Assembly (NCBI GenBank): GCA_964015875.1
Contig: CAXHEV010000002.1
Span: forward strand, 141,307-205,306
Length of the DNA stretch: 64,000 nt
Reading direction: 5' to 3'
DNA from: an uncultured Candidatus Poseidoniales archaeon
Lineage (GTDB): Archaea; Thermoplasmatota; Poseidoniia; Poseidoniales; Poseidoniaceae
Under the pieces are notes generated by a model. It worked only from the letters and a program-made list of their open reading frames with translations, ran no database searches and was not told the origin of the DNA. Shown here in pieces: positions 36,271-41,008 of this stretch. A program made the translations under genes and the position numbers. Numbering within the stretch: position 1 is the stretch's first letter; every line of letters begins with the position of its first letter.

Positions 36271-37404
36271 TCATTCCTCTTCGAGCAGCAGTTTAGCTTG
36301 CCGTGTCGTAGGCATTGCAAGTTGGCCAAGCCTGAAACCAATCAAACGTACGGAACGCTTGTGATCAACGTTCAGCGCGAAGAGGCGCTCTGCAAGTCTT
36401 GCAAACACATCCACATCATCCATAGCAACCGGAATCGAGCGGCCGTGGGTATGAGTTTCAAACCCGGTGTATCTCACTTTAACCTCACACAGGCGTCCCG
36501 CAACACCGATCGATTTCGCCTTCGTCATTACCCGTTCGACGAGTGAATGAAGATGCTTGAGGACCTTCTCCTTATCCGATTGGTCTGTCCTAAAAGTTTG
36601 TTCTTTACCGATTGATTTACGACTTCTCAAAGGACTTACTTCCTTGCTGGTAGCACCGTCAACCACTCGAATTAACCATGAGGCAAAGCGTTCGCCTGCA
36701 ATTCGACCGAGGGCCAACTCGCCGAGTTCATATGCTTCGTCTACGGTGTTGAAGCCCCATTCGGCCAGCTGAGTCGCCCTTTTTGGTCCAATACCAGGCA
36801 CGTCCCGCAGAGAACGGCCGACAAAGAAATCTAATGTTTCATCCGGAAGCATTCGAAAGATACCGTTTGGCTTGTTGATTTCACTCGACATCTTTGCGAG
36901 GATTCGGGTAGGTGCTATGCCAAATGAGGCGGTTAAACCGAGTTCCTCTACGATTTGACGTTGCAAATCCCTGCACATTGCATAAGCCGCATCCCAGTCG
37001 CCATTCACTGCTTGTGTAATGTCAAGGTAGGCCTCATCGATGCCTGCTTTCTCAAAATGCTCAGCTGGCTCTTTCAAGATGGCCATAACCTTGCGTGAAG
37101 CACGACTGTACAATCCACGCGTCCCTCCAATGTAATGACCGGGACCAAAGGGGGAGCCTGGACATCGCCTCCAAGCCTCTCCGATCGGCATCGCAGAGCG
37201 AATTCCGTAAGCCCTCGCTGCGTAATTACAAGTCGAAACAATACCCCGTCCTCTGCCCCCTTGGGGGTCAGAACCGATGATTAACGGACGCTCAGGATCT
37301 AAGTCGCGATGTAGAATTTCGACCGCAGCAAAAAAAGCGTCCAGATCACAGTGAACGAGAATACGTTCGCTCTCTTGCAAGGACTCTGCCGAATCCTCCC
37401 TCAT
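36271..37404 (-). CDS. dinB: Y-family DNA polymerase IV (DinB/Dpo4-like) with catalytic residues intact
   Basis: ILVHCDLDAFFAAVE, GIVSTCNYAARAYGIRSAMP, AGIDEAYLDIT and the HhH block VPGIGPKRATQLAEWG. The start is taken at MREDSAES; the open frame extends to 37509. Confidence 0.9.
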   Translation of the reverse strand: MREDSAESLQESERILVHCDLDAFFAAVEILHRDLDPERPLIIGSDPQGGRGRGIVSTCNYAARAYGIRSAMPIGEAWRRCPGSPFGPGHYIGGTRGLYSRASRKVMAILKEPAEHFEKAGIDEAYLDITQAVNGDWDAAYAMCRDLQRQIVEELGLTASFGIAPTRILAKMSSEINKPNGIFRMLPDETLDFFVGRSLRDVPGIGPKRATQLAEWGFNTVDEAYELGELALGRIAGERFASWLIRVVDGATSKEVSPLRSRKSIGKEQTFRTDQSDKEKVLKHLHSLVERVMTKAKSIGVAGRLCEVKVRYTGFETHTHGRSIPVAMDDVDVFARLAERLFALNVDHKRSVRLIGFRLGQLAMPTTRQAKLLLEEE

Positions 37405-37522
37405 ACCACGTGTCCAGTGTCCACGGTGTTTCAAGTTGATGACAAGATCCACACGACTACATTCACTTTTTTCGCAAGGGTGGGGGGAAGGAAAGAGAGC
37501 CCCCTTCACAACCTTCCGAGGT

Positions 37523-38212
37523 ATGGCAACAAATGCATCAATTCAACGGTTTGAACGGCCCCTTGACTTCTCAGTCATTGCCCCGAAAAGAGGGCACATC
37601 TACCAACTTCGCGGGCACGGGCATGCTGGGCGTACGATGCGAAAATACGCTGAAACATGGGCGGCTTCTGCACTCTTGCGAGGGGAATGTGTGCATTGGA
37701 TTGATGGTGCATCGCGAATGAACCCTACTCGTATCCTTCGTCGGTTCCCCAGAAGCGAAGCCTCAGCTCGAGATCATCTGCATCGATTGTATGTTGGGCG
37801 TGGATTCACAGTCCACCAACTGGCAACACTGATTCAACGCTTGGAATGTGAAGTGTCGATTACGGCGGCACCACTGGTCATTATTGATGCGCCACTTGCC
37901 ATGCACCTTGACCGACAGGTTGGTGACCATGAGGCGCGTTGCCTGATGCGCCAACTCATCCAACACTTGCAGTCTGTTGCCGTGCTCAACAACGTTGCTG
38001 TTCTCATCATCACAGAGCATATGCCAACGTCGAAACGACACCAACACTTACTCACGATGGTCGAACGAAATTCATCTCATCAGCTGATTGAGCATGTAAG
38101 GGGTCGAGGACGAAATACCCGGCGATGGCTATCACATGAGCCAAGTGGAAGCACTGGTCAGTGGCCACAAAACCAGAATGTATTGAGGCGGTACATCGAG
38201 CCAAACCAGTAA
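37523..38212 (+). CDS. RecA-superfamily (RadB/ImuA/KaiC-like) protein with a degenerate Walker A
   Basis: About 229 aa. GHIYQLRGHGHAGRTMRKYAETWAASALLRGECVHWIDGASRMNP sits where a P-loop and beta-strand are expected. Also LYVGRGFTVHQLATLIQRLE, APLVIIDAPLAM (Walker-B-like hhhhD) and LMRQLIQHLQSVAVLNNVAVLIITEH. The fold assignment is by pattern only. Confidence 0.6.
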   Translation: MATNASIQRFERPLDFSVIAPKRGHIYQLRGHGHAGRTMRKYAETWAASALLRGECVHWIDGASRMNPTRILRRFPRSEASARDHLHRLYVGRGFTVHQLATLIQRLECEVSITAAPLVIIDAPLAMHLDRQVGDHEARCLMRQLIQHLQSVAVLNNVAVLIITEHMPTSKRHQHLLTMVERNSSHQLIEHVRGRGRNTRRWLSHEPSGSTGQWPQNQNVLRRYIEPNQ

Positions 38213-38220
38213 AGTGAACC

Positions 38221-40674
38221 TCAATTCGCTGGACTTAATGATGATTCATCTTGACCTTTGAACGATTCAAGAGTAATGCGTTTTTGCCCCATAGAAACCT
38301 CTTCCTCATCCCATCCAAATGGAGCAAGAATTGCCCAAATAGCACGAATGGCAAGAGCAGTATAATGCCCAATATCTGGCCGACCAGAAGGAGGATTGGG
38401 CCCGGTCAGTTCTTCGACCAAGAGAACGCGTTCGTGCTGGACGGTTCCCTTCGAAGCAATCACTGCAAATCGAACCTTTCCACCGGGAGGCACTGTGACG
38501 CCCTGAAGTCGTCCTCGAAGCAAAGCAGCGTGCGCCAATGTAGCCACATCAAAATCTCCAAGTTCACGATTAATTCGGCGGGCAACCACGAGATCGAGTA
38601 AGCTGACATCATCCTTCTCAAGGGCATTCAGATGCTGTCGTAACAATCGAGCTACAGCCACCTGACCATCGAATGTGGGGATACCCTGTTGGTCATCAGA
38701 ATGTTCGATCAACAACTGGAGTGCTTGGCGTTGCAAATGCGCAACCCATCCACAGGTGGAATGTTGACGCTCTTCGATCCCCCGGACCTTGAGTCCGTGC
38801 TGTCCATAGGCCCAGTACTTGGTCAAGGAACCAGCACCATGAACACGACTTGGAACAAAGCCGATGAAACGGTAAAGGTCTTCATATTCAAGCGGGATAC
38901 CAACGCGCTGTGAAACTCGCTGTGCAAAAGCGTGGGCATCATGAACTCGTTGCTCCGGAGTTCGTTGTCCTCGGTCTTGAATCCAAACACAGTCAACGAT
39001 GGCATGAAGCACTACCCAACCATCTTCCTCAGCCATCTGAATGGTTTCCAGAAGAATGTCCCTCGCCCATGCGCAAATCGCTTCATGCGCTTCAATGCGT
39101 CCAAAGCGGGCGTTTTTGTAGCCAGTGTAGCCAAAGCAGGTGACAAGCAACCATTTGAGGGCGTTTTGTTGTTGATCGAAACAATCCCCTTTGGATTTCA
39201 CCTTCGTTTTCAAAAACCTACGGCGTTCGATAAGAGGCGCTACAATACGTCCAAGGAATCCATGAACTCGGGCACATGTGTGTGAGGATAAACCCGGCAC
39301 TGGGAGAGCTTGTGCTGAGCGAACTGGAAACAAACCTGCGCCCAGGTGCCTTCGAGTATGGCGTTCGCTGAACGTTCGTTCTGCTTCATCAGGATGAAGG
39401 GGTACAAAGGCGGCTGCAGATGGTGCTTTATCGGCTTGACAACAGGGGCAGTTGAGCGTTTCAGTGGATATGTTTCGCGTGGCGATAATGCTTGGAAAAA
39501 GGCTCGCAAAATCAAGTTCGATGACGTGCTCGTAGACACCAGGTTGGCTATCGAGGTAAAGACCTCCTCGATCTGCATGCAGCAACGACCAAGCAGTTTT
39601 GGTATCTTCGGGACGGTTCTTTTTCCAAGGCACGAGAACGCCGTCTTCCATGGCTGTACGCATTTGTATGGCACTGATAACAGAACCAGGTGAGAGCCGG
39701 GAGATGTCTTGAGGCGATTGTTGGGAGTGTCTGGCAAGTTCAAACAAACCTTGGAGCCCACCCTCTCGAACGATGAAGCTGCCAACTCGGTCAATGTGCA
39801 AGCGTCCATACAATGGGATGTAGCCGTCCTTATGCATGGTTTGACCGTACGAATGAATCGTACGTGCAGAAGTTCTGGCCTCCAGAGGTCGTCCATCTCG
39901 ACTTAGCGAAAAGGGCATTGCGCACTTCGCAGCCATACGGATCAGAGCCGGGAGGTGTAAACCATCGCCTCCATGCGTAACAACAACGTCTGGATCGAGT
40001 TTTTCCATGGTCTGTTCAAGACGTTGTAAAAAATGCGATGCGCAAGTGTTGTGATCCCGAACCAAAGTGACGGAGGGTGTGCTCGAGGTATCGCATGTAC
40101 CGTCTGGTGAACAAGTGCGGAATTCAATTCGTTCTATTTCGGCTTCATCACTATGAAATCCATTCGCTGTCTGGTAGGCAAACCCCAAGTGAACGATGGT
40201 CAGATTGGGGAAGAGATCTTCGTCATGGGGTTCTGAATGAAACACATGACCATCCCAACGAACTTTTTGAAAGGGCTTGATACGATGTTCAAGGAGGAAT
40301 CGTTGAGCGAGGTGTGCATCGACAGAATAGAGGGTATAATGCTTATACTGACCTCTCGATTCAATATGCGTTGCCACTTTTTTTAACTGCCAGCAGTTGT
40401 GAACATCTATTTCGAGGACCTCATCGACTTCAGATGCATCAAGGGACAACCGGGAGCGATGCATACGCATGAGGCCGAGACCAAAACGGTCTCGAATTTC
40501 GGGTTGTTCCAGCCACGACCAGAGGTGTTGCAGGCGTTGACGATTGGCATGAACGTGAAGTGAAGGGCACCACGGAATATTGAGTTTCATCGACCCGTTA
40601 GTCTCTCCAACTAACCACACATCCAAGGAAGTCCCATTCGGCGCTGCTTGGACATCAAGAATTGTTCCGATCAT
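38221..40674 (-). CDS. polB: Family-B DNA polymerase with degenerate 3'-5' exonuclease motifs (PolB2-like?)
   Basis: Motif A is IELDFASLFPSIIATRN, the motif-B region is NALKWLLVTCFGYTGYKNARFG, and the motif-C region is GWVVLHAIVDCVWIQD. The N-terminus MIGTILDV resembles archaeal PolB starts; the open frame extends to 40710. Exo I and II positions read VHLGFAYQT and VTHGGDGLHLPALI. No intein-sized insertion. Confidence 0.85.
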   Translation of the reverse strand: MIGTILDVQAAPNGTSLDVWLVGETNGSMKLNIPWCPSLHVHANRQRLQHLWSWLEQPEIRDRFGLGLMRMHRSRLSLDASEVDEVLEIDVHNCWQLKKVATHIESRGQYKHYTLYSVDAHLAQRFLLEHRIKPFQKVRWDGHVFHSEPHDEDLFPNLTIVHLGFAYQTANGFHSDEAEIERIEFRTCSPDGTCDTSSTPSVTLVRDHNTCASHFLQRLEQTMEKLDPDVVVTHGGDGLHLPALIRMAAKCAMPFSLSRDGRPLEARTSARTIHSYGQTMHKDGYIPLYGRLHIDRVGSFIVREGGLQGLFELARHSQQSPQDISRLSPGSVISAIQMRTAMEDGVLVPWKKNRPEDTKTAWSLLHADRGGLYLDSQPGVYEHVIELDFASLFPSIIATRNISTETLNCPCCQADKAPSAAAFVPLHPDEAERTFSERHTRRHLGAGLFPVRSAQALPVPGLSSHTCARVHGFLGRIVAPLIERRRFLKTKVKSKGDCFDQQQNALKWLLVTCFGYTGYKNARFGRIEAHEAICAWARDILLETIQMAEEDGWVVLHAIVDCVWIQDRGQRTPEQRVHDAHAFAQRVSQRVGIPLEYEDLYRFIGFVPSRVHGAGSLTKYWAYGQHGLKVRGIEERQHSTCGWVAHLQRQALQLLIEHSDDQQGIPTFDGQVAVARLLRQHLNALEKDDVSLLDLVVARRINRELGDFDVATLAHAALLRGRLQGVTVPPGGKVRFAVIASKGTVQHERVLLVEELTGPNPPSGRPDIGHYTALAIRAIWAILAPFGWDEEEVSMGQKRITLESFKGQDESSLSPAN

Positions 40675-40951
40675 CCGTCTCCATCCTCGCTGCTTCCAGC
40701 CGTTCCACACGTTGCTGCAATCGCATGTTTTGTGATGTCAATTCGAGCATCATGGACAACAGCATTGGCTTCCAAACCTCATGCGAAGGAAGCATACCAC
40801 CAGCTGTTCTTCGCTGACGAACGCCGTTGAGGAGTTCGTCGAACATTTGTTTTTCGGCAAATGGAAGCGCACGGCGAAACGGCTCCAATGTACCGAGTTC
40901 ATCTTCAATTCGCATCCGCCATGTTGGTACTGTTCGACCCATACCTTGCAC
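40655..40951 (-). CDS. Small helical protein, overlapping the polB start
   Basis: 98 aa (…EPFRRALPFAEKQMFDELLNGVRQRR…WKPMLLSMMLELTSQNMRLQQRVERLEAAR). Its stop overlaps the polB start by 20 nt, or 56 nt with the longer polB frame. It lies 57 nt downstream of the serA-like stop, on the same strand. Confidence 0.5.
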   Translation of the reverse strand: MQGMGRTVPTWRMRIEDELGTLEPFRRALPFAEKQMFDELLNGVRQRRTAGGMLPSHEVWKPMLLSMMLELTSQNMRLQQRVERLEAARMETDDRNNS

Positions 40952-41008
40952 AACGACTCGATGAGGACCATCTTTGGCATGACCCTCGCTGATGCAAGTG
41001 AAAGTGAA

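What the first reader, a model, noticed from the sequence alone, without database searches (positions are those of the whole stretch)
38221..40674. Family-B polymerase with substituted exonuclease motifs and a non-canonical motif C
The comparisons below use the archaeal PolB consensus as I remember it.
- Exo I, normally FDIET, reads LGFAYQT here (D to A, E to Q).
- Exo II, normally NxxxFDxxYL, falls in VTHGGDGLHLPALI, with no Asn or Asp at the expected spots.
- Motif A keeps the metal-binding Asp (DFASLFPSII).
- Motif B, normally KxxxNSxYG, reads KWLLVTCFG (NS to VT).
- Motif C, normally Y(A/G)DTD(S/G), reads HAIVDC. Only the second Asp is retained.

This pattern predicts a proofreading-deficient polymerase that may still be active, which is the signature of a specialised or translesion enzyme rather than a replicase.
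Basis: partly seen in the sequence, partly recalled or inferred. Interest (0 to 1): 0.65.

Follow-up and report, generated by a model that had tools for sequence, protein, structure and literature searches.

The report
Archaeal PolB2 translesion polymerase operon
The gene encodes a PolB2-type family-B DNA polymerase of a marine Poseidoniales archaeon, a known kind of proofreading-dead but active damage-tolerance polymerase, and it sits with its two known partner genes and a Y-family polymerase, so the finding is real but already explained.

Summary
ORF 38221..40674 (-) is an intact 817-aa family-B polymerase. All three exonuclease motifs are lost. Motif A Asp, the second motif C Asp (IVD) and the triphosphate-binding R485/K489/K507 are kept. 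These are family signatures, not private decay: in 130 diverse relatives D388 and D561 are invariant and KWLLV(T)CFGY / H(G/A)I(V/T)DS are near-invariant.

The protein is a PolB2. Sulfolobus Dpo2, of the same group and with the same kind of substitutions, is experimentally an exonuclease-free, active translesion "extender". The locus is a complete PolB2 mutasome cassette:
- PPB2 (40655..40942, N-terminal MGRTVPTWR arm), overlapping polB2 by 20 nt.
- iRadA (37523..38212), on the opposite strand.
- An intact dinB (36271..37404).

Order and neighbours match the published operon group "3b (PPB2-PolB2-iRadA)" of Poseidoniales (PMC11791011). All three genes show dN/dS of about 0.1.

Side observations that may be new:
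- A conserved ACTTTC box upstream of PolB2 operons in several archaeal lineages, resembling the Sulfolobales ANTTTC damage-response element.
- A Walker-A-like P-loop in many Poseidoniaceae iRadA.
- A clade-specific 43-aa insertion and a Phe-to-Thr change in the presumed iRadA-docking motif.

The parts
38221..40674 (-). polB2: 817-aa exonuclease-dead family-B DNA polymerase, the catalytic subunit of the PolB2 mutasome
   Evidence: - Pfam PF00136, E 3e-22.
- NCBIfam NF004418 / NF004416 at about 1e-112, but below their cutoffs.
- hhalign against KOD PolB: probability 100.
- AlphaFold2 pLDDT 91.5. Foldseek top hits are 9N/KOD/Pab PolB, E 1e-42, TM about 0.7.
- dN/dS 0.097.
40168..40188 (-). Exo I remnant LGFAYQT (residues 163-169). 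KOD D141 corresponds to G164 and E143 to A166.
   Evidence: hhalign; family column counts.
39940..39981 (-). Exo II remnant VTHGGDGLHLPALI (residues 232-245). KOD N210 corresponds to G235 and D215 to H240.
   Evidence: phmmer alignments to KOD/Pfu PolB, hhalign, family columns.
39562..39603 (-). Loop T358-K-T-A ... D368-R369-G-G. It holds the family's invariant D(K/R)GG motif, which contacts the PPB2 arm in the published models. Just before it lies the FK(T/S)A (FxxA-like) motif, presumed to dock iRadA. In this clade the Phe is replaced by Thr.
   Evidence: Column counts: D 118/118 and R/K 113/118 in non-MGII relatives. Position 358 is F in 77/118 non-MGII relatives, but T/C/V/L in 12/12 MGII sequences. 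The role of the motif is taken from PMC11791011.
39484..39513 (-). Motif A DFASLFPSII (residues 388-397). The metal-ligand D388 is kept. The steric-gate Tyr is replaced by F393.
   Evidence: D is found in 130/130 relatives. F393 is found in 12/12 MGII sequences, against Y in 110/118 elsewhere.
39310..39438 (-). Poseidoniales-specific 43-aa insertion (residues 413-455) inside the conserved CxCC...C loop. It is modelled as a short strand plus helix 428-445.
   Evidence: Loop comparison across 70 relatives; AlphaFold2 secondary structure; the Cys residues C409/C411/C412/C467 are conserved.
39130..39156 (-). Motif B KWLLVTCFG (residues 507-515). K507 is kept, while N, S and Y become V, T and F.
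   Evidence: Counts: K 129/130, V 126/130, F 128/130, so this is a family signature.
38989..39006 (-). Motif C HAIVDC (residues 557-562). The first Asp of DTD is replaced by I559. The metal-ligand D561 is kept.
   Evidence: D561 is found in 130/130 relatives. No relative has Asp at position 559.
38257..38280 (-). C-terminal RITLESFK (residues 799-806), a degenerate PCNA-interacting (PIP-like) motif
   Evidence: hhalign places it on the KOD PIP box QVGLSAWL. Clade relatives read QPTLLSFM and QPSLLDFI. It is modelled as a short helix before a disordered tail.
40655..40942 (-). PPB2 (arCOG07300 / Pfam DUF8156): a 95-aa helical partner of PolB2 with the N-terminal arm MGRTVPTWR (Arg3, Arg9). Its last 20 nt overlap the polB2 start.
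   Evidence: - The motif is as described in PMC11791011.
- Orthologues carry a precomputed PF26485 hit.
- An HMM seeded from this protein finds the PolB2-adjacent small ORF in 78 of 86 loci, including bacterial ones.
- AlphaFold2: free arm 1-7 and helices 8-25, 28-43 and 54-93.
- dN/dS 0.11.
37523..38212 (+). iRadA: a 229-aa RadA/Rad51 core homologue without the N-terminal domain. It lies on the opposite strand, convergent with polB2. Features: P-loop-like GHGHAGRT (37613..37636), WIDGAS in place of RadA IDTE (37697..37714), Walker-B-like LVIIDA, and a C-terminal PIP-like QNVLRRYI (38174..38197).
   Evidence: - Weak hits to Pfam Rad51, TIGR RadB and PDB RadA.
- Same position and strand in about 40 Poseidoniales loci.
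- P-loop and tail comparison.
- dN/dS 0.10.
36271..37404 (-). dinB: an intact 377-aa Y-family DNA polymerase IV, divergent from iRadA. It is the likely inserter partner.
   Evidence: - Pfam IMS 1.5e-36 and IMS_C 1e-20.
- NCBIfam NF002677 at 258.8 bits, above its cutoff of 256.
- DLDAFFAAVE and IDEAYLD are present.
- Adjacent in 21 Poseidoniales loci and in no non-MGII locus.
40995..41008 (-). Tandem box TTCACTTTCACTTG (two copies of ACTTTC), 53-66 nt upstream of the PPB2 ATG. It is a candidate damage-responsive promoter element.
   Evidence: The exact 11-mer occurs once in the 64-kb window. 27 of 34 non-identical Poseidoniales loci have ACTTT[CT]A at -57..-73. It resembles the ANTTTC element of PMC6061795.
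37462..37474 (+). Related box TTCACTTTTTTCG in the 118-bp iRadA/dinB divergent intergenic region. It lies 61 nt upstream of the iRadA ATG and about 58 nt upstream of the dinB ATG.
   Evidence: Orthologous positions in L001, L006, L007, L011, L015, L029 and L034 carry TTCACTTTCA-type boxes.

Best explanation
The ORF is the catalytic subunit (PolB2) of the archaeal PolB2 mutasome, in a chromosomal locus of a Poseidoniaceae (Marine Group II) archaeon.

What is shown here:
- It has the full family-B polymerase fold with a dead, partly deleted 3'-5' exonuclease domain.
- It keeps the two metal-ligand aspartates (D388, D561) and the triphosphate-binding R485, K489 and K507.
- It is co-encoded with PPB2 (overlapping reading frames) and with iRadA.
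- It is linked to an intact Y-family dinB.
- All three cassette genes are under strong purifying selection.

What is inferred from published work on the family:
- The protein is an active but non-proofreading DNA polymerase.
- It works as a translesion "extender": the Y-family polymerase or another polymerase inserts a base opposite a lesion, and PolB2 then elongates the mispaired or distorted primer end.
- It acts as a PolB2:(PPB2)3:iRadA heteropentamer. The PPB2 MGRT arm reaches into the cleft near the DNA and the D368-R369 loop.
- The complex is tethered to PCNA through the PIP-like C-termini of iRadA (QNVLRRYI), of PolB2 (RITLESFK), or of both.

What is hypothesis:
- Expression is probably damage-inducible through the conserved ACTTTC box upstream of both transcription units.
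For: Family-B fold and motif mapping.

PolB2 signatures are shared with 130 diverse relatives from archaea and bacteria:
- I/L/V-x-D in motif C, with D561 in 130/130
- KW(L)LV(T)(C)FGY in motif B
- the invariant D(R/K)GG loop
- CxCC...C

Partner genes:
- PPB2 has the published MGRT arm with Arg3 and Arg9, is helical with a free N-terminal arm, and is found next to PolB2 in 78 loci.
- iRadA is weakly but specifically RadA-like. It lacks the catalytic Glu (WIDGAS) and carries a C-terminal PIP-like motif.

Published operon group: gene order and neighbours (2-Hacid_dh, IMS, tRNA-synt_1, Lactamase_B) match group "3b (PPB2-PolB2-iRadA)", which is assigned to Poseidoniales in the supplement of PMC11791011.

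Experimental basis for the activity claim: Dpo2 of S. islandicus and S. solfataricus is active, exonuclease-free and a mismatch/lesion extender (PMC8764526). It is damage-induced and required for targeted mutagenesis.

Selection: dN/dS is 0.097, 0.11 and 0.10 for polB2, PPB2 and iRadA.

Transcription: low-depth matches in marine RNA libraries.
Against: - No biochemical data exist for any Poseidoniales PolB2.
- NCBIfam PolB2-like models are hit below their curated cutoffs.
- This clade departs from the family consensus at positions that may matter. The Phe of the FxxA-like iRadA-docking motif is Thr. There is a 43-aa insertion. The steric-gate Tyr is Phe.
- iRadA is on the opposite strand, so the three genes are not one operon.
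- The complex, PCNA binding and damage induction are all inferred.
- The RNA evidence comes from unstranded contigs of oligo-dT libraries that may contain DNA.
Confidence: 0.82

Rival explanations
1. Catalytically dead pseudo-polymerase. The protein only binds DNA or partners and has a structural or regulatory role. This was the original prediction for PolB2.
For: The first Asp of DTD, the Asn/Ser/Tyr of motif B and all exonuclease residues are substituted. This was the published inference before 2020 (PMC4104785).
Against: - Sulfolobus Dpo2 enzymes, which carry the same kind of motif C substitution (IID in S. islandicus), are robust polymerases (PMC8764526).
- The residues that ligate metals and bind the triphosphate (D388, D561, K507, R485, K489) are invariant or nearly so across 130 relatives. 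That is hard to explain for a non-enzyme.
Confidence: 0.08
2. A main or alternative replicative polymerase of Poseidoniales.
For: It is a full-length family-B polymerase with a PIP-like C-terminus. No other polymerase except dinB is encoded in the 64-kb window.
Against: - It has no proofreading site.
- It is co-encoded with mutasome partners and dinB.
- Dpo2 is distributive and non-essential.
- According to PMC4104785, PolD occurs in all archaea except Crenarchaeota and PolB3 in all except Thaumarchaeota. The presence of PolD and PolB3 in this genome was not checked here.
Confidence: 0.03
3. A polymerase of a virus or mobile element (magrovirus, casposon or a pPolB-type element) rather than a cellular repair gene.
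For: Marine Group II viruses and casposons are known to carry family-B polymerases (own knowledge; casposons are in PMC4104785).
Against: - The neighbourhood is housekeeping and syntenic across about 40 Poseidoniales genomes: ValRS, 2-hydroxyacid dehydrogenase, AlaRS, topoisomerase I, RtcB, SHMT.
- GC content is flat.
- No cas1, terminal protein or capsid genes were seen.
- The closest relatives are cellular PolB2.
Confidence: 0.02
4. A decaying pseudogene whose motif losses are recent damage.
For: Many canonical motifs are substituted.
Against: - The ORF is uninterrupted for 817 aa.
- The same substitutions are shared by the whole family.
- dN/dS is 0.097.
- The fold is predicted with high confidence.
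Confidence: 0.01

Closest known systems
Sulfolobales Dpo2 / PolB2 mutasome (PolB2 + PPB2/arCOG07300 + iRadA): PMC8764526, PMC7390963, PMC11791011
   Same: - Exonuclease site lost.
- First Asp of DxD replaced by a hydrophobic residue (IID in S. islandicus, IVD here).
- D(K/R) loop motif.
- Co-encoded PPB2 with an MGRT arm and a RadA homologue lacking the N-terminal domain.
- Expected role as a damage-tolerance extender polymerase.
   Different: - Different phylum (Thermoplasmatota rather than Crenarchaeota).
- Much longer protein, with a structurally fuller N-terminal / exonuclease-like region (817 aa; motif C Asp at 561, against 403 in S. islandicus).
- iRadA is on the opposite strand.
- dinB is adjacent.
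- No orc1/cdc6 neighbour.
- No biochemistry for this clade.
Published PolB2 operon group 3b (PPB2-PolB2-iRadA), Poseidoniales: supplement of PMC11791011
   Same: The gene order is the same. The enriched neighbours are the same (IMS 46, 2-Hacid_dh_C 45, tRNA-synt_1 42 and Lactamase_B 32, out of 95 loci), and there are no orc1/cdc6 neighbours. The window is an instance of this group.
   Different: In the text available here, the paper does not discuss the following: the inverted strand of iRadA, the dinB linkage, the P-loop in Poseidoniaceae iRadA, the Phe-to-Thr change with the insertion, or any promoter element.
Thermococcales PolB (KOD, 9N, Tgo, Pfu), the closest solved structures
   Same: Same overall fold (Foldseek E 1e-42, TM about 0.7). 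Motif A Asp, second motif C Asp, R460/K464/K487 equivalents and the position of the C-terminal PIP box are shared.
   Different: Those enzymes have intact Exo I-III, DTD and KxxxNSxYG, and are single-subunit high-fidelity polymerases. The window protein has about 18-19% identity to them, a deletion of the Exo III region and a 43-aa insertion.
Eukaryotic Pol zeta (Rev3 with Rev7 and accessory subunits)
   Same: It works alike: a B-family, exonuclease-inactive, multisubunit, damage-linked extender that acts after a Y-family inserter (analogy drawn in PMC11791011, and PMC8764526).
   Different: Not a member. The accessory subunits are different, the DTD motif is canonical, and it is eukaryotic.
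E. coli Pol V mutasome (UmuD'2C-RecA) and bacterial ImuA-ImuB-DnaE2 cassettes
   Same: The architecture is analogous: an error-prone polymerase, a small oligomeric subunit with an N-terminal arm, and a RecA/Rad51-family protein. For ImuA-ImuB-DnaE2, the comparison rests on own knowledge.
   Different: The catalytic subunit belongs to family Y or C rather than B. The components are not homologous, apart from the RecA-fold protein.

Membership tests
Family B DNA polymerase (PF00136) | Palm, fingers and thumb polymerase domain recognisable by profile and by fold | tested here: met
   PF00136 at E 3e-22; hhalign against KOD with probability 100 over 689 columns; AlphaFold2 pLDDT 91.5 and Foldseek E 1e-42 to PolB structures.
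Family B DNA polymerase (PF00136) | Catalytic metal ligands: the motif A Asp and the second Asp of motif C | tested here: met
   D388 and D561 align with KOD D404 and D542. Both are invariant in 130 relatives.
Proofreading replicative PolB (PolB1 / PolB3 type) | Exo I DxE, Exo II NxxxFD and Exo III YxxxD catalytic residues | tested here: not met
   D141/E143 correspond to G164/A166, and N210/D215 to G235/H240. The Exo III segment is deleted. The PF03104 hit is below its cutoff.
Proofreading replicative PolB (PolB1 / PolB3 type) | Canonical motif C Y-x-DTD and motif B KxxxNSxYG | tested here: not met
   The window reads HAIVDC and KWLLVTCFG.
PolB2 group | First Asp of DxD replaced (true of most members), with the second Asp kept | tested here: met
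   559-IVD-561, compared with S. islandicus 401-IID-403.
PolB2 group | Exonuclease domain present but without an active site, with a variable degree of decay | tested here: met
   None of the 130 relatives keeps the Exo I D/E together with the Exo II D.
PolB2 group | Conserved D(K/R) loop motif upstream of motif A | tested here: met
   D368-R369-G-G. In non-MGII relatives D is found in 118/118 and R/K in 113/118. The motif is described in PMC11791011.
PolB2 group | Rad51-like beta-alpha oligomerisation motif that docks iRadA | tested here: inconclusive
   The loop and its helix 361-366 are present. The FK(T/S)A Phe, found in 77/118 other relatives, is Thr358 here and in the whole clade. No multimer modelling tool was available.
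PolB2 group | Adjacent PPB2 (arCOG07300): a small helical protein of about 90 aa with an N-terminal MGRT arm and Arg3/Arg9 | tested here: met
   MGRTVPTWR. Orthologues carry PF26485. The family HMM finds the equivalent ORF in 78 loci. The model is a free arm followed by helices.
PolB2 group | Adjacent inactivated RadA homologue lacking the N-terminal domain | tested here: met
   The protein is 229 aa with only the RadA core. The catalytic Glu is replaced (WIDGAS). Caveats: a P-loop-like GHGHAGRT remains, and the gene is on the opposite strand.
PolB2 group | Phylogenetic placement inside the PolB2 clade relative to PolB3 | not tested
Indirect support: the best NCBIfam hits, signatures shared with 130 relatives, and Poseidoniales entries listed as PolB2 group 3b in the published supplement.
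PolB2 group | Polymerase activity without exonuclease activity, and mismatch or lesion extension | not testable with these tools
   Known only for Sulfolobus Dpo2.
PolB2 group | DNA-damage-inducible expression | not testable with these tools
   Only indirect evidence: a conserved ACTTTC box upstream, and low-depth RNA contigs.
E. coli Pol II-type bacterial TLS PolB | Single subunit with an active exonuclease | tested here: not met
   The exonuclease residues are lost. The match to Pol II is only local.

The most novel reading that the evidence does not exclude
The ACTTTC(A/G) box upstream of this cassette is a damage-response operator conserved far beyond Sulfolobales.

- It lies a fixed 24-29 nt upstream of a TATA-like element in PolB2 operon promoters of Methanomassiliicoccales and other Thermoplasmata. 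Exact or relaxed ACTTTC boxes also lie upstream of the operon in Halobacteriota and Hadarchaeota loci.
- In Poseidoniales it is duplicated in tandem upstream of PPB2-polB2, and a related box lies in the iRadA/dinB divergent promoter.
- This would imply an Orc1-2-like ANTTTC regulon that is ancestral in archaea and that co-regulates an inserter (DinB) and an extender (PolB2 mutasome) in surface-ocean archaea.

In addition, the Poseidoniaceae mutasome may be a rewired variant: an iRadA that still binds nucleotide (GxxxxGK[ST] kept, catalytic Glu lost), and a new docking element (the 43-aa strand-helix insertion) that replaces the lost Phe of the FxxA-like motif.
Probability: 0.3. Interest if true: 0.6.

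Novelty: already known. Interest (0 to 1): 0.3.

Why it matters
For the finding itself, it matters little. It is a correct by-eye rediscovery of PolB2, a family whose odd motifs, partners and translesion role are published, including the Poseidoniales operon type.

It is useful as an annotation. Public records call these proteins "DNA polymerase I", "DNA polymerase elongation subunit" or "hypothetical protein". PPB2 is always "hypothetical" in those records.

Marine Group II archaea live in sunlit surface water. A linked DinB plus PolB2-mutasome cluster is therefore a plausible major route of UV-damage tolerance and mutagenesis in one of the most abundant archaeal groups in the ocean.

If the conserved ACTTTC box is a real damage-response operator shared with Sulfolobales, it would give a handle on a DNA-damage regulon in uncultured archaea. 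That question is still open outside Sulfolobales.

Tried and rejected
- **Pfam scan of PPB2.** Scanning the 95-aa ORF and its orthologues with the local Pfam copy gave nothing useful. That copy apparently lacks PF26485. The assignment rests instead on precomputed hits for orthologues, the MGRT motif and a locus-wide HMM.
- **iRadA HMM.** The first iRadA HMM alignment was trimmed and excluded the P-loop. The analysis was redone on full ORFs.
- **DK motif candidate.** I first took QADK (residues 413-416) as the published "DK" motif. This was rejected. It lies in a clade-specific insertion, and the true invariant motif is D368-R369 before GG.
- **Accession look-up.** I looked for NCBI accessions of close homologues in the paper's supplement and found none. 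The stored file is truncated, so this shows nothing either way. Poseidoniales rows labelled 3b are present.
- **Regulator in the window.** I looked for an orc1/cdc6 gene in the window and found none. This is consistent with group 3b having none nearby.
- **Box elsewhere in the window.** Matches to the box with up to 2 mismatches occur at chance level across the window (28 found, 27 expected). It is therefore not a general promoter motif.
- **dinB upstream element.** I tested whether the conserved element upstream of dinB is an N-terminal coding extension. It is in frame in some loci, and out of frame or cut by a stop in others, so it is probably a DNA-level element. The idea of an ATC start codon was not pursued.
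- **RNA evidence.** Only short unstranded contigs at depth 2-9 from oligo-dT libraries were found. This is too weak for transcription start sites or induction.
- **Rejected readings.** Mobile-element or viral polymerase, pseudogene and replicase readings were considered and rejected (see the rival explanations).

Full report
**1. The object**

The region holds one long ORF on the minus strand, 38221..40710 (829 aa from a GTG). An ATG at 40674 gives 817 aa. I use the ATG for three reasons:
- The profile alignment to KOD PolB begins at residue 4 of that form.
- Orthologues are 800-830 aa long.
- The ATG overlaps the end of the upstream small ORF by 20 nt, exactly as in orthologous loci.

GC content is flat across the window. 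The surrounding genes are housekeeping: ValRS, a 2-hydroxyacid dehydrogenase, AlaRS, topoisomerase I, RtcB, SHMT and subtilases. Homologues at 51-91% identity are abundant in marine metagenomes. Where named, they come from Poseidoniales (Marine Group II) / Thermoplasmatota. The DNA itself is found in many marine metagenome runs.

**2. Checking the motifs**

Pfam finds the polymerase domain (PF00136, 3e-22). The exonuclease domain gives only a sub-threshold trace.

I used two alignments. One is phmmer against solved structures. The other is hhalign of a 130-sequence family alignment against KOD PolB (probability 100, E 1.3e-89). Both give the same mapping:

| Motif | KOD PolB | Window protein |
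|---|---|---|
| Exo I | D141 / E143 | G164 / A166 |
| Exo II | N210 / D215 | G235 / H240 |
| Exo III | residues about 263-318 | deleted |
| Motif A | D404 | D388 (kept) |
| Steric gate | Y409 | F393 |
| Fingers | R460 / K464 | R485 / K489 (kept) |
| Motif B | K487 | K507 (kept) |
| Motif B | N491 / S492 / Y494 | V511 / T512 / F514 |
| Motif C | D540-T-D542 | I559-V-D561 |

No canonical motif is found elsewhere.

The AlphaFold2 model is confident (pLDDT 91.5, pTM 0.91). Its best structural matches are Thermococcales PolB (E 1e-42, TM about 0.7).

**3. These are family signatures**

A full HMMER scan of 1.84 billion representatives found 2316 relatives. I analysed 130 full-length relatives from many archaeal lineages:
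- D388 and D561 are invariant.
- K507 is found in 129/130.
- Motif B reads KW(L)LV(T)(C)FGY almost everywhere.
- Motif C reads H(G/A)(I/L)(V/T)DS.
- No member has Asp at the first DxD position.
- No member keeps the Exo I and Exo II acidic residues together.
- An invariant D(R/K)GG lies 20 residues before motif A.

**4. What it is**

The literature names this family PolB2.
- Makarova et al. (PMC4104785) described it as apparently inactivated and linked to arCOG07300 and an inactivated RadA.
- Feng et al. showed that Sulfolobus Dpo2 is a robust polymerase without exonuclease. It extends mismatched and lesion-paired termini (PMC8764526) and drives damage-induced mutagenesis.
- Timinskas et al. 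(PMC11791011) modelled a PolB2:(PPB2)3:iRadA heteropentamer. They defined the PPB2 N-terminal "MGRT" arm with Arg3/Arg9, the D(K/R) loop, a Rad51-like docking motif, and PIP motifs that sit on either iRadA or PolB2.

The window contains all of these.
- **PPB2.** The 98-aa ORF 40655..40951 has an internal ATG at 40942 and then reads MGRTVPTWR. Its orthologues carry Pfam DUF8156. An HMM seeded from it finds the PolB2-adjacent small ORF in 78 of 86 loci, including bacterial ones. Its model is a free arm followed by helices 8-25, 28-43 and 54-93.
- **iRadA.** ORF 37523..38212 (+) is a RadA-core homologue without the N-terminal domain. It has WIDGAS where RadA has IDTE and a C-terminal QNVLRRYI that fits QxxLxx[FYW]h.
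- **PolB2 C-terminus.** RITLESFK aligns with the KOD PIP box.
- **dinB.** An intact dinB (36271..37404) lies divergent from iRadA.

**5. Synteny**

I compared 86 loci.
- All non-Poseidoniales loci (Methanomassiliicoccales, other Thermoplasmata, Bathyarchaeia, Hadarchaeota, Halobacteriota and several bacteria) have iRadA-PPB2-PolB2 on one strand.
- About 40 Poseidoniales loci have PPB2-PolB2 followed by iRadA on the opposite strand.
- 21 of those also have dinB divergent from iRadA.

This is the published operon group "3b (PPB2-PolB2-iRadA)". Rows for Poseidoniales carry that label. Supplementary Table S1 lists, for the 95 loci of 3b, IMS 46, 2-Hacid_dh_C 45, tRNA-synt_1 42, Lactamase_B 32 and orc1/cdc6 0. 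That is the neighbourhood seen here. The finding is therefore already known.

**6. Function and selection**

Against the 91%-identical orthologue (L086), dN/dS is 0.097 for polB2, 0.11 for PPB2 and 0.10 for iRadA. Short contigs from marine RNA libraries match all three genes at 95-99% identity. They are unstranded, of low depth, and could include DNA.

The most likely mechanism is that of the family: an exonuclease-free extender that works after an inserter, which here is plausibly the adjacent DinB. It would act as a PPB2/iRadA-bound complex recruited to PCNA. The following steps are inferred, not shown: activity of this protein, complex formation, PCNA binding and induction by damage.

**7. 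Things seen beyond the finding**

(a) *A conserved promoter box.*
- TTCACTTTCACTTG (two copies of ACTTTC) lies 53-66 nt upstream of the PPB2 ATG.
- 27 of 34 non-identical Poseidoniales loci have ACTTT[CT]A at -57..-73, although the upstream gene differs among them. The background rate is 1.6% per window, giving a binomial P of about 2e-42, not corrected for relatedness.
- A related box lies about 60 nt upstream of iRadA in many loci and in the window (37462..37474). In the window it sits midway in the 118-bp iRadA/dinB intergenic region.
- In 33 non-Poseidoniales archaeal loci, 14 have an exact ACTTTC at -100..-40 of the first operon gene (background 1.25%, P about 1.6e-18). In 14 of the 16 loci with an exact ACTTTC anywhere in the 120 nt upstream, it sits 24-29 nt upstream of a TATA-like hexamer. 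High-GC Thermoplasmata show cGTTTCAAC plus TTTAGA. Bacterial loci lack the box.
- ACTTTC fits the Sulfolobales damage-response element 5'-ANTTTC-3', which is bound by Orc1-2 (PMC6061795). All archaeal papers in the library that mention that motif concern Sulfolobales.
- The link to Orc1-2 is a hypothesis. A 6-mer with one free position is a weak match on its own.

(b) *iRadA P-loop.* Many Poseidoniaceae iRadA keep a canonical Walker A (GPGHSGKS, GPGRAGKS, GQGYAGKS). Others, including the window (GHGHAGRT) and its closest relative (GHGYAGRT), have the Lys replaced. A deeper-branching subset of the Poseidoniales loci (L027-L035, L042; one is labelled Thalassarchaeaceae) and all other lineages have no P-loop.

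(c) *Changes in the whole Poseidoniales PolB2 clade.* Thr (or C/V/L) replaces the Phe of the FK(T/S)A motif that I equate with the Rad51-like FxxA docking motif. There is a 43-aa strand-helix insertion in the CxCC...C loop. The steric-gate Tyr is Phe.

(d) *A second conserved element.* GGTGTTT(C/G)AA(G/C)TTGATG (37425..37441) accompanies dinB. It is not consistently in frame with dinB.

**8. Verdict**

The object is an already described system (PolB2 mutasome, operon group 3b). Interest in the finding as given is low to moderate. The promoter box and the clade-specific features of iRadA and PolB2 are the only parts that might be new.

Noticed in passing
window 40995..41008 (-) and 37462..37474 (+); loci L001-L085: An ACTTTC-type box is conserved upstream of PolB2 operons.
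- In Poseidoniales it is in tandem upstream of PPB2 (27 of 34 loci at -57..-73), with a related box upstream of iRadA/dinB.
- In other archaeal lineages a single box lies 24-29 nt upstream of a TATA-like hexamer (exact ACTTTC in 14 of 33 loci).
- It resembles the Sulfolobales Orc1-2 element ANTTTC.
- The exact 11-mer occurs once in the 64-kb window.
   Followed up: partly
window 37613..37636 (+); iRadA of L003, L004, L009, L010, L014, L017, L019, L022, L025, L026, L038, L040: Many Poseidoniaceae "inactive" RadA partners keep a canonical Walker A GxxxxGK[ST]. The window and its closest relative (L086) have Lys replaced by Arg (GHGHAGRT and GHGYAGRT). Loci L027-L035 and L042, and all other lineages, have no P-loop. 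The catalytic Glu is lost in all four Poseidoniales iRadA aligned (WIDGA-type). This suggests nucleotide binding without hydrolysis.
   Followed up: partly
window 39592..39603 and 39310..39438 (-): In the whole Poseidoniales PolB2 clade, the Phe of the FK(T/S)A (FxxA-like, presumed iRadA-docking) motif is Thr/Cys/Val/Leu. A 43-aa strand-helix insertion also sits in the conserved CxCC...C loop. The PolB2-iRadA interface may be rewired.
   Followed up: partly
window 39496..39498 (-), residue F393: The steric-gate Tyr of motif A (KOD Y409) is Phe in 12 of 12 Poseidoniales PolB2, against Tyr in 110 of 118 other PolB2. The effect on sugar discrimination is unknown.
   Followed up: partly
window 36271..37404 (-) and 37405..37522: An intact dinB is divergent from iRadA in 21 Poseidoniales loci and in none of the non-Poseidoniales loci. 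This puts an inserter and an extender gene side by side. The linkage is tabulated (IMS, 46 of 95) but not discussed in the published supplement.
   Followed up: yes
window 37425..37441: A second conserved element, GGTGTTT(C/G)AA(G/C)TTGATG, lies upstream of dinB and is present only where dinB is adjacent. It is in frame with dinB in some loci (I-N-L-K-H) but out of frame or cut by a stop in others, so it is probably a DNA-level signal. In three loci an ATG sits at its first codon, and in some others an ATC.
   Followed up: partly
window 40655..40674 (-): The PPB2 stop and the polB2 start overlap by 20 nt, with GGAG 4 nt upstream of the polB2 ATG. The same overlap is seen in orthologous loci, which suggests translational coupling.
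   Followed up: yes
window 39439..39453 and about 39274..39276 (-): residues C409, C411, C412, C467: Four conserved Cys residues (CxCC ... C) are found across PolB2. KOD PolB has two of them, which form the C428-C442 disulfide (own knowledge). The four could be a metal site or a disulfide cluster.
   Followed up: no
window 38211..38218 (-): A third copy of the 8-mer TTCACTTT lies in the 8-nt gap between the convergent stop codons of polB2 and iRadA. Three of the five copies in the 64-kb window lie in this 3.6-kb locus. This copy may be chance.
   Followed up: no
public records of homologues: Public annotation is uninformative. The polymerase is named "DNA polymerase I", "DNA polymerase elongation subunit (family B)", "DNA polymerase domain-containing protein" or "hypothetical". 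PPB2 is always "hypothetical protein".
   Followed up: yes
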